Positions 18,662 through 19,767 of a DNA stretch of 64,000 nt are shown in pieces. The first letter of the stretch is position 1. Every line of letters starts with the position of its first letter. The notes below the pieces were generated by a model. It saw nothing but the letters and a program-made list of their open reading frames with translations, searched no databases and had not been told where the DNA came from. The translations under genes were made by a program, and so were the position numbers. The DNA comes from the human T2T-CHM13v2.0 reference genome, Homo sapiens, in assembly GCF_009914755.1 (NCBI RefSeq), contig NC_060932.1, one strand, 5' to 3'.

Positions 18662-18794
18662 ACCCACCTTGGAGCCTCCCAAATTGCTGGGATTACAGGC
18701 GTGAGCCACCGCGCCCTGCCTGACATCACTGATAAATTAGGGAGAAAAGATTAAGGAAGAGTGGCTAATTGTAGTTATCAACGACTGTGAAAGG
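18662..18794 (-). repeat. Inverted copy of 19292-19420 inserted into the PRPF3 pseudo-CDS at codon ~15
   Basis: Reverse complement reads ctttcacagtcgttgataactacaattagcc...caaggtgggtg versus ctttcacagtcgtgataactagaattagcc...caaggcgggtg. Confidence 0.92.
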
Positions 18795-18889
18795 ATCCAT
18801 GGTTTCAGCTCATCCAGCTCCCTCTTAGTGCCATTTTTCAGGAAAAAGAATAGCTCAAATGGGACTCAATACTACAGCTCACAAACTTC

Positions 18890-19130
18890 AGCCCCGAGAC
18901 GGAGGCCGAAAGTTAAACCGGAACCAGAAACCTTCTGACTGCCCTAGGCCTGTTGTCCCTATCGCCACGGCAGCTGCCACGCCGCTGTCTCCCAACACGT
19001 GACCAGAGTGGGCCGGGCCGCCAATTCGTGCAGCCATGTTTGCCACTTTCCTGGAGGCAGAGCGCATGCGTCGCAGAACCGAAACGTTTCCGTGAACAAG
19101 TTGCTTGCTTTCTGTTTCCCGGACTAAGCC
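18890..19130. promoter_or_regulatory. CpG-rich promoter-like segment inside the PRPF3 retrocopy
   Basis: About 18 CpGs in ~240 bp; CCGGAA 18918-18923, CACGTGAC 18996-19003, CCAAT 19021-19025, GCCATGTT 19033-19040, GCGCATGCG 19062-19070. Confidence 0.6.
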
Positions 19131-19767
19131 TGTTTCTGCCAAGTTAATGTCTTTAACTTCCTGAAGCGGAAATTAGGCTACTTGCAGTTTTCCTTATATG
19201 GAGAATAAGTGCGCAAAAGTAAACTGCTAGAACGAAGAGTGAGGCTTCTGCGTTTGTGCTCAAACATAGCCTTTCTGATAGAAAGTAAATACTTTCACAG
19301 TCGTGATAACTAGAATTAGCCATCCCTCCTTAACCTTTTCTCCCTAATTTAACAGTGGCGTCAGGCTGGGCCGGTGGCTCATGTTTGTAATCCCAGCACT
19401 TTGGGAGGCCAAGGCGGGTGGACCACTTGAGGTCAGGAGTTCGAGACCAGCCTGGCCAACATAATGAAACCCCGCCTCTACTCTAAAGGTCATTCTTTGA
19501 TGCTCAGTTTTTCCAGCTACTTATATTTATTGATGTCTTTCCAGATCTATTTTTATTAATAATTATATAGCTTGTTAGTATATTTTTGGATGAGATATAT
19601 GTAATCAATACATACTTTAAAAATATACTATAAAGATAAGGAATGAAAATTCCAAGTCTTTTATTGTAATCTCTTCTTCCTCATGTTAATGTCCCAAACA
19701 GAGCTGAGGAATGACTAGGAAACTATGCCTCCGTTAACCTGTCTCCATCTCATTTTTAGCAAATGAT

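What the first reader, a model, noticed from the sequence alone, without database searches (positions are those of the whole stretch)
18662..19420. ~133-bp inverted self-insertion brackets the retrocopy's ATG and promoter in a large hairpin
Seen: PRPF3 codons ...KPW I | E KTV... are split by a segment whose reverse complement matches 19292-19420 (unique sequence plus Alu start; roughly 85% identical by eye), with almost no loss of flanking bases and no TSD. The donor segment is itself inside the retroposed unit. Inference: an out-and-back template switch at or soon after integration, onto the opposite strand or onto a promoter-antisense RNA; this differs from ordinary twin-priming inversion. 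The arms flank ~500 bp, so PPP1R42 pre-mRNA could form a long stem here.
Basis: partly seen in the sequence, partly recalled or inferred. Interest (0 to 1): 0.7.

Follow-up and report, generated by a model that had tools for sequence, protein, structure and literature searches.

The report
Inverted self-insertion in PRPF3 retrocopy
A dead copy of the splicing gene PRPF3, lying in an intron of PPP1R42, carries 132 bases of its own upstream sequence pasted in backwards, likely from a one-off DNA copying slip early in its history, a known kind of mutation, and the RNA hairpin it is predicted to form looks no more special than dozens of others in this gene.

Summary
Window 18662-18793 (132 nt) is a reverse-complement copy of 19292-19419: 114 of 128 aligned bases match, 64 of 72 outside the Alu. 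It sits between PRPF3 codons 15 and 16, with 0-1 nt lost, 2-3 and 1 nt of microhomology, and no duplication or poly(A). A 15-nt target duplication (16377-16391, 19484-19498) places the donor inside the retrocopy, which includes 547 nt upstream of the annotated start. Both arms are equally far from the chr1 parent (7 substitutions each). Arm-to-arm divergence (10 of 115 non-CpG sites) matches the 9.4 expected if the copy arose at birth, but up to 40-52% of the retrocopy's age may have passed first. The geometry is the published '3-2-1-4' template switch, or small inverted duplication; it is not twin priming. I favour ordinary DNA repair or replication soon after integration (0.52) over a switch during integration (0.33); an antisense-RNA template is unsupported (0.07). 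The stem is predicted to fold (z -11.9) but is 1 of 92 local inverted pairs in the window. Primate orthologues, not available here, would settle the timing.

The parts
18662..18793 (.). Inverted templated insert, 132 nt, between PRPF3 codons 15 and 16; carries a stop codon in the PRPF3 frame
   Evidence: alignment to donor; translation as it stands
19292..19419 (.). Donor arm, 128 nt: 72 nt non-Alu sequence plus the first 56 nt of an Alu left arm
18794..18796 (-). Junction 1: parent and donor flank (19289-19291) share ATA; the retrocopy keeps two bases and differs at 18794, so 2-3 nt microhomology and 0-1 nt lost
   Evidence: chance of >=2 nt 0.066, >=3 nt 0.018
18661..18661 (-). Junction 2: one shared base (G, donor 19420); PRPF3 codon 16 resumes with no loss
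18794..19291 (-). 498-nt spacer: copied PRPF3 promoter, exon 1, spliced exon 1/2 junction (18878|18877), ATG at 18834-18832
16392..19483 (-). Whole PRPF3 retrocopy (3,092 nt), all 15 introns absent, A-rich tail remnant at the low end
18937..19483 (-). 547 nt of PRPF3 upstream sequence inside the retroposed unit, beyond the RefSeq pseudogene boundary; 18937-19405 aligns to the chr1 parent
19364..19483 (+). Alu left-arm fragment, antisense to the retrocopy, cut at the retrocopy's 5' end
16377..16391 (.). Target-site duplication, 3' copy (15 nt)
   Evidence: (D8)
19484..19498 (.). Target-site duplication, 5' copy (15 nt, identical)
   Evidence: (D8)
19953..20073 (-). Part of a neighbouring Alu that can pair with 19363-19482; in the prediction it takes the Alu bases left free by the insert
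   Evidence: (I1)

Best explanation
The 132-nt insert is a reverse-complement copy of the retrocopy's own upstream segment, likely made by one out-and-back template switch during DNA repair or replication of the already integrated copy, early in its life. Inferred steps: a sense-strand 3' end at codon 15 paired through 2-3 nt with the same sense sequence about 490 nt back (fold-back, or the sister copy); it was extended for about 130 nt and rejoined at codon 16 through 1 nt, with 0-1 nt lost. The insert put a stop codon in the PRPF3 frame, and both arms have since drifted neutrally. The hairpin is likely a by-product without function.
For: Shown: arm identity and junctions; donor inside the target duplication. 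No inverted copy of the non-Alu part in 78 kb of the parent locus, and the parent's 683-codon frame is intact. Switch order is 3-2-1-4, the inverted-repeat type that with its mirror makes 31% of high-confidence human-chimp events (PMC5453318, passages). Fragments of this size are on record: maximum 128 nt (PMC7954356); 97-180 nt maxima per person (10.1101/2021.11.26.470150); 277 inverted duplications of median 284 bp, mostly with 1-15 bp microhomology (PMC12350158). Early timing: 4 private substitutions per arm, one site with three states, and 0 polarised shared-derived changes in 76 columns; 10 of 115 non-CpG differences against 9.4 expected at birth. The retrocopy also has a 46-nt tandem duplication with nearly identical copies, so DNA-level events do occur here.
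Against: The best-fit delay is zero in 3 of 6 model settings, and the data favour 'at birth' over 'any later time' by 2.2-4.5 fold, which helps the integration-coupled rival. A 490-nt jump and a 130-nt copy lie in the upper tail of local template switches (median 12 nt). The junction base 18794 matches neither parent nor donor, and 1 nt of microhomology is chance level (0.25). One shared arm-versus-parent site (19336) and the 44-nt gap cannot be polarised without an outgroup.
Confidence: 0.52

Rival explanations
1. The switch happened during integration. While the second (sense) strand was being made on full-length cDNA, its 3' end jumped at codon 15 onto a sense template (the mRNA's 5' part, or its own strand), copied about 130 nt and returned to the cDNA at the same spot. 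All steps are inferred.
For: Best-fit delay near zero, Bayes factor 2.2-4.5; both arms equally diverged. ORF2p copies RNA and DNA templates, jumps templates and adds untemplated bases in vitro (PMC10830420, passages), which could explain base 18794. Switching occurs in fresh L1 insertions: 20 + 3 switch events and 22 templated insertions among 3,598 (10.1101/2024.08.27.596794, passages). Donor and acceptor both lie in the 5' quarter of the unit.
Against: None of the classes named in the passages read has a sense 5' part, a duplicated inverted middle and a contiguous sense 3' part; 81 of the 3,598 were unclassified and supplements were not read. It needs a 130-nt loop in one strand to survive until replication. 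The clock cannot exclude a later event.
Confidence: 0.33
2. First-strand synthesis jumped from the mRNA to a PRPF3 promoter-antisense RNA (or a free antisense cDNA) and back: the first reader's second option.
For: The geometry allows it (mirror of the same switch), and an upstream-started mRNA could pair with such an RNA (inference). Insertions made from two RNAs exist (nine in PMC11702581, passages).
Against: Needs a second molecule that happens to cover the same 130 nt, with only 1 nt of homology at departure. No evidence of such an RNA was obtained. The arms show no excess of insert-plus-parent shared changes.
Confidence: 0.07
3. The insert was captured in trans from the ancestral chr1 PRPF3 promoter DNA at a later break, or is a twin-priming variant.
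For: The three sequences form a star, so the source cannot be told from substitutions alone.
Against: A donor 490 nt away in cis is far simpler. The insert holds 44 + 14 nt (partly overlapping the arm) that today's parent lacks. Twin priming puts the inverted piece next to the 5' target duplication, and here that piece is in sense.
Confidence: 0.04
4. Whatever its origin, the hairpin is a maintained functional RNA element of PPP1R42 pre-mRNA, or of a transcript from the copied promoter.
For: Predicted stem -398.9 kcal/mol, z -11.88 against 20 shuffles; 112.5 expected arm-arm pairs even with the neighbouring Alu present. It has the lowest Alu-like cover (0.45) of the 92 pairs.
Against: The arms diverged at the neutral rate (10 seen, 9.4 expected). 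There are 92 inverted pairs of at least 100 nt within 3 kb in the window, many longer. No Rfam family matches here. A transcript from the copied promoter would hold only one arm.
Confidence: 0.04

Closest known systems
Four-point template-switch mutation, type 3-2-1-4 (Loytynoja and Goldman 2017, PMC5453318; Walker et al. 2021, PMC7954356)
   Same: A nearby fragment copied in reverse complement, with return to the original strand, creating one inverted repeat; same order of switch points.
   Different: Fragment (about 130 nt) and jump (about 490 nt) are at the top of the reported range (median 12, maximum 128 nt in the great-ape set); this event is much older and lies in a retrocopy.
Small inverted duplications in long-read human SV catalogues (PMC12350158)
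   Same: Insertion of an inverted local copy, hundreds of bp or less, with short microhomology.
   Different: Those segregate today; this one is about 4% diverged per arm. Their donor-to-site distances were not seen in the passages read.
Twin priming, and twin priming with 5' or 3' switching (10.1101/2024.08.27.596794; PMC3996531; PMC11702581)
   Same: An inverted piece of the retroposed RNA's own sequence inside an L1-made insertion, with 1-4 nt microhomology.
   Different: Those always have a 5' inversion next to the target site and little duplication (median 22 bp). Here the 5' end is in sense, the flanks are contiguous and 130 nt from 490 nt away are duplicated.
Small inverted triplication (PMC13334657)
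   Same: Fold-back of a 3' end, inverted fragment of similar size (median 160 bp), return to template.
   Different: Needs flanking direct duplications and has a spacer near 30 bp; here there is no direct duplication and the spacer is 498 nt.
Retrocopies that inherited a parental promoter (Carelli et al. 2016, PMC4772013)
   Same: An RNA started upstream of the main start carried the promoter into the copy.
   Different: There about 3% of expressed retrocopies; expression of this one was not tested and its reading frame is broken.

Membership tests
Template-switch mutation 3-2-1-4 / small inverted duplication | Inserted fragment is the reverse complement of nearby sequence | tested here: met
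   114 of 128 aligned bases, 498 nt away
Template-switch mutation 3-2-1-4 / small inverted duplication | Order of switch points 3, 2, 1, 4 with return to the original strand | tested here: met
   On the retrocopy's strand: 19419, 19292, 18794, 18661; points 1 and 4 adjacent in the parent (definition)
Template-switch mutation 3-2-1-4 / small inverted duplication | Short microhomology (1-15 bp) and no long homology at the junctions | tested here: met
   2-3 nt and 1 nt; weak against chance, 0.066-0.018 and 0.25
Template-switch mutation 3-2-1-4 / small inverted duplication | Arises in chromosomal DNA replication or repair, not during reverse transcription | tested here: inconclusive
   Clock: median delay 0.13-0.21 of the retrocopy's age, 95% upper 0.40-0.52; no orthologues available
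Twin-priming inversion | Inverted segment abuts the 5' target-site duplication | tested here: not met
   The 690 nt next to the 5' duplication are in sense wherever they align to the parent
Twin-priming inversion | Little or no duplication at the inversion point | tested here: not met
   128 nt from 490 nt away are present twice; median 22 bp
Twin priming with 5' or 3' switching | A 5' inversion underlies the extra segment | tested here: not met
   No 5' inversion; definitions
L1-associated templated insertion (as defined in 10.1101/2024.08.27.596794) | Template is target-site DNA, typically within 15 bp of the insertion site | tested here: not met
   Template lies inside the retroposed unit, 64-192 nt from its 5' end, and is parent-derived
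Small inverted triplication | Direct duplication on both sides of the inverted fragment | tested here: not met
   Flanks are contiguous parent sequence with 0-1 nt lost
Separate Alu or transduction insertion | Own poly(A) tail and target-site duplication | tested here: not met
   Neither is present at 18661/18794
L1-made processed pseudogene (the host element) | Introns absent | tested here: met
   14 coding junctions plus the exon 1/2 junction are spliced
L1-made processed pseudogene (the host element) | A-tail and target-site duplication | tested here: met
   15-nt identical duplication and A-rich remnant
ADAR-edited intronic inverted repeat | Long double-stranded stem in pre-mRNA | tested here: inconclusive
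   Predicted only: z -11.88, 112.5 expected pairs
ADAR-edited intronic inverted repeat | A-to-I changes seen in RNA reads | not testable with these tools
   No RNA data available

The most novel reading that the evidence does not exclude
This is a fossil of an undescribed outcome of L1 integration: during second-strand synthesis the growing sense strand jumped back onto the mRNA (or itself), copied about 130 nt in reverse and returned to the cDNA without loss. A full-length retrocopy that had brought its own promoter was thereby killed at birth. It would be germline evidence that the second strand can re-prime on the RNA.
Probability: 0.33. Interest if true: 0.55.

Novelty: new member of a known kind. 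Interest (0 to 1): 0.24.

Why it matters
Most likely little: one more small inverted duplication, in a dead gene copy. It would matter if orthologues tie it to integration, because how L1 makes its second strand is still unclear (PMC10830420), and sense-inverted-sense retrocopies would be a countable genomic trace of that step. Side value: the retrocopy preserves an older state of the PRPF3 promoter, and RefSeq's two 'exons' and 5' boundary for the pseudogene misdescribe the unit.

Tried and rejected
Similarity only from Alu: rejected, 64 of 72 non-Alu bases match. Insert inherited from the parent as an exon or old inversion: rejected; no inverted copy of the non-Alu part in 78 kb of the parent, intact frame, and the junctions are not GT-AG. 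Donor is native chr8 sequence: rejected; it aligns to chr1 and lies inside the duplication. The 325-nt gap against the parent upstream looked like a spliced intron but is an Alu with a 13-nt duplication in the parent, plus a small deletion. The 44-nt piece missing from the parent as a second templated insert: no source found, best score 23 against a shuffled mean of 24. Promoter CpG kept better than coding CpG: 14 of 25 versus 15 of 39, p = 0.20, not significant. The two 'shared = 1' rows forced the unpolarised site onto the retrocopy branch (upper bounds 0.49 and 0.56) and were replaced by the mixture model. The bacterial promoter scan does not apply to this genome. Literature: no paper names LOC100288001; the 20 listed of 117 papers with two of PRPF3, pseudogene, PPP1R42 did not concern this locus by title; one five-term search on templated insertions gave 0.

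Full report
1. Observation. The arms are real. Insert 18662-18793 (132 nt) is the reverse complement of 19292-19419 (128 nt): 114 matches, 14 substitutions, 3 small indels (seen also). Outside the Alu there are 64 matches and 8 mismatches, scoring 97 against at most 32 in 200 shuffles and 25 elsewhere in the window. Genome-wide the non-Alu part gave only these 2 matches.

2. The host element. The coding part matches PRPF3 on chr1 exon by exon and nowhere else (16 matches: itself and 15 chr1 pieces). The parent's exons give a 683-residue frame. The retrocopy lacks the 14 coding introns and intron 1, ends in an A-rich remnant, and is bounded by an identical 15-nt duplication at 16377-16391 and 19484-19498. 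The unit is therefore 16392-19483, 547 nt longer than RefSeq's pseudogene, and the donor lies inside it. The copied RNA was spliced yet began well upstream of the annotated start (inference). Today's parent differs there: it has an extra Alu with a 13-nt duplication, lacks 44 nt, and keeps only about 45 nt of the antisense Alu. I read these as later changes in the parent; without an outgroup the 44-nt gap is not polarised.

3. Junctions. The insert falls between codons 15 and 16. Parent and donor flank share ATA at one end and one G at the other; the retrocopy has C at the last base of the ATA (18794). So 0-1 nt were lost, with 2-3 and 1 nt of microhomology. Chance levels are 0.066, 0.018 and 0.25. 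There is no tail, no duplication and no GT-AG. Read as it stands, the insert puts a stop in the PRPF3 frame.

4. Timing. The retrocopy's own branch is 51 of 1,256 non-CpG non-degenerate sites (4.1%), assuming the parent's protein has not changed. That is roughly 35-45 million years by a recalled rate. The arms differ at 10 of 115 non-CpG sites, against 9.4 expected for a copy made at birth. In the 76 columns shared with the parent, each arm has 4 private substitutions, one site has three states, the donor has a 1-nt deletion, and 2 sites set the parent apart. One of those is parent-derived by the majority of 156 Alus; the other cannot be polarised. Each arm is 7 substitutions from the parent. 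A Poisson model with a flat prior puts the delay at a median 0.13-0.21 of the retrocopy's age, 95% upper bound 0.40-0.52, and favours 'at birth' over 'any later time' by 2.2-4.5 fold (6 settings, including clustered changes merged). The event was early; 'at integration' is allowed but not shown.

5. Mechanism. Shown: a reverse-complement copy of nearby sequence, with exact or near-exact return. Inferred: a 3' end left its template at codon 15, primed on the opposite-sense copy about 490 nt away, copied about 130 nt and came back. The simplest donor is the retrocopy itself. Two settings fit. (a) Repair or replication of the integrated copy (0.52): this needs only a known process. (b) Second-strand synthesis during integration (0.33): this is helped by the clock and by ORF2p's template jumping (PMC10830420, passages), but I found no described class with this layout. 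An antisense-RNA template (0.07) needs a second molecule and has 1 nt of homology at departure. The split between (a) and (b) is a judgement on base rates, not a measurement.

6. Comparison with known kinds. It works like, and meets the tested features of, the 3-2-1-4 template switch (PMC5453318, passages: 31% of events with its mirror). Its size is at the top of the range in PMC7954356 (passages: median 12, maximum 128) and 10.1101/2021.11.26.470150 (passages: maxima 97-180), and within the small inverted duplications of PMC12350158 (passages: 277 events, median 284 bp). It fails twin priming and its switching variants (10.1101/2024.08.27.596794, PMC11702581, PMC3996531; passages), target-site templated insertions and small inverted triplications (PMC13334657, passages). 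Inherited promoters occur in about 3% of expressed retrocopies (PMC4772013, passages). I read passages only and no supplements; those of the L1 long-read papers may hold a matching case. No paper in the library names LOC100288001; searches listed none on this locus by title.

7. The hairpin. On the PPP1R42 strand the region is predicted to fold at -398.9 kcal/mol, z -11.88 against 20 shuffles, and the arm-arm stem persists (112.5 expected pairs) beside the neighbouring Alu. But the window holds 92 inverted alignments of at least 100 nt within 3 kb, 89 of them at least 80% Alu-like. The arms have drifted at the neutral rate, and Rfam has no match here. The stem brackets the ATG and promoter only because the donor lies upstream in the same unit. 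Editing and expression could not be tested.

8. Verdict. A real, well-preserved, early inverted self-insertion: a new member of a known kind, interest 0.24. The novel reading, a second-strand switch during L1 integration, keeps 0.33 and can be tested with primate orthologues and a survey of retrocopies.

Noticed in passing
window 18937-19483: The retrocopy carries 547 nt of PRPF3 upstream sequence beyond RefSeq's boundary. 18880-19130 still has 59% G+C and CpG observed/expected 0.90 (parent 1.18), so it may be a leftover CpG-island promoter inside the last PPP1R42 intron; activity untested.
   Followed up: partly
G000:C1:149445769-149446320 (L023, L024): Relative to the retrocopy, the PRPF3 promoter has an extra Alu with a 13-nt duplication, a 44-nt gap and an antisense Alu cut to about 45 nt with no remainder in 12.7 kb upstream. 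The retrocopy likely records the older promoter.
   Followed up: partly
window 16982-17074: Tandem duplication of 46 nt in the retrocopy's coding part; the copies differ by one inserted base, so it is likely much younger than the inverted insert.
   Followed up: partly
window 19483: The first base after the 5' target duplication is a G that does not fit the Alu run there; it may be a copy of the RNA cap (one base, speculation), which would make this the RNA's true start.
   Followed up: no
window 44252-44426: The 'uncharacterized' pseudogene LOC124902097 matches U2 snRNA, RF00004, full model, 59.8 bits.
   Followed up: yes
window 16403-18936: RefSeq's two 'exons' for LOC100288001 reflect the insert, not an intron.
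   Followed up: yes
window 16392-18834 versus PRPF3: Divergence at four-fold sites (13 of 296) is hardly above that at non-degenerate sites (51 of 1,256): no sign of a functional period for the retrocopy, and possibly slow synonymous change in PRPF3.
   Followed up: no
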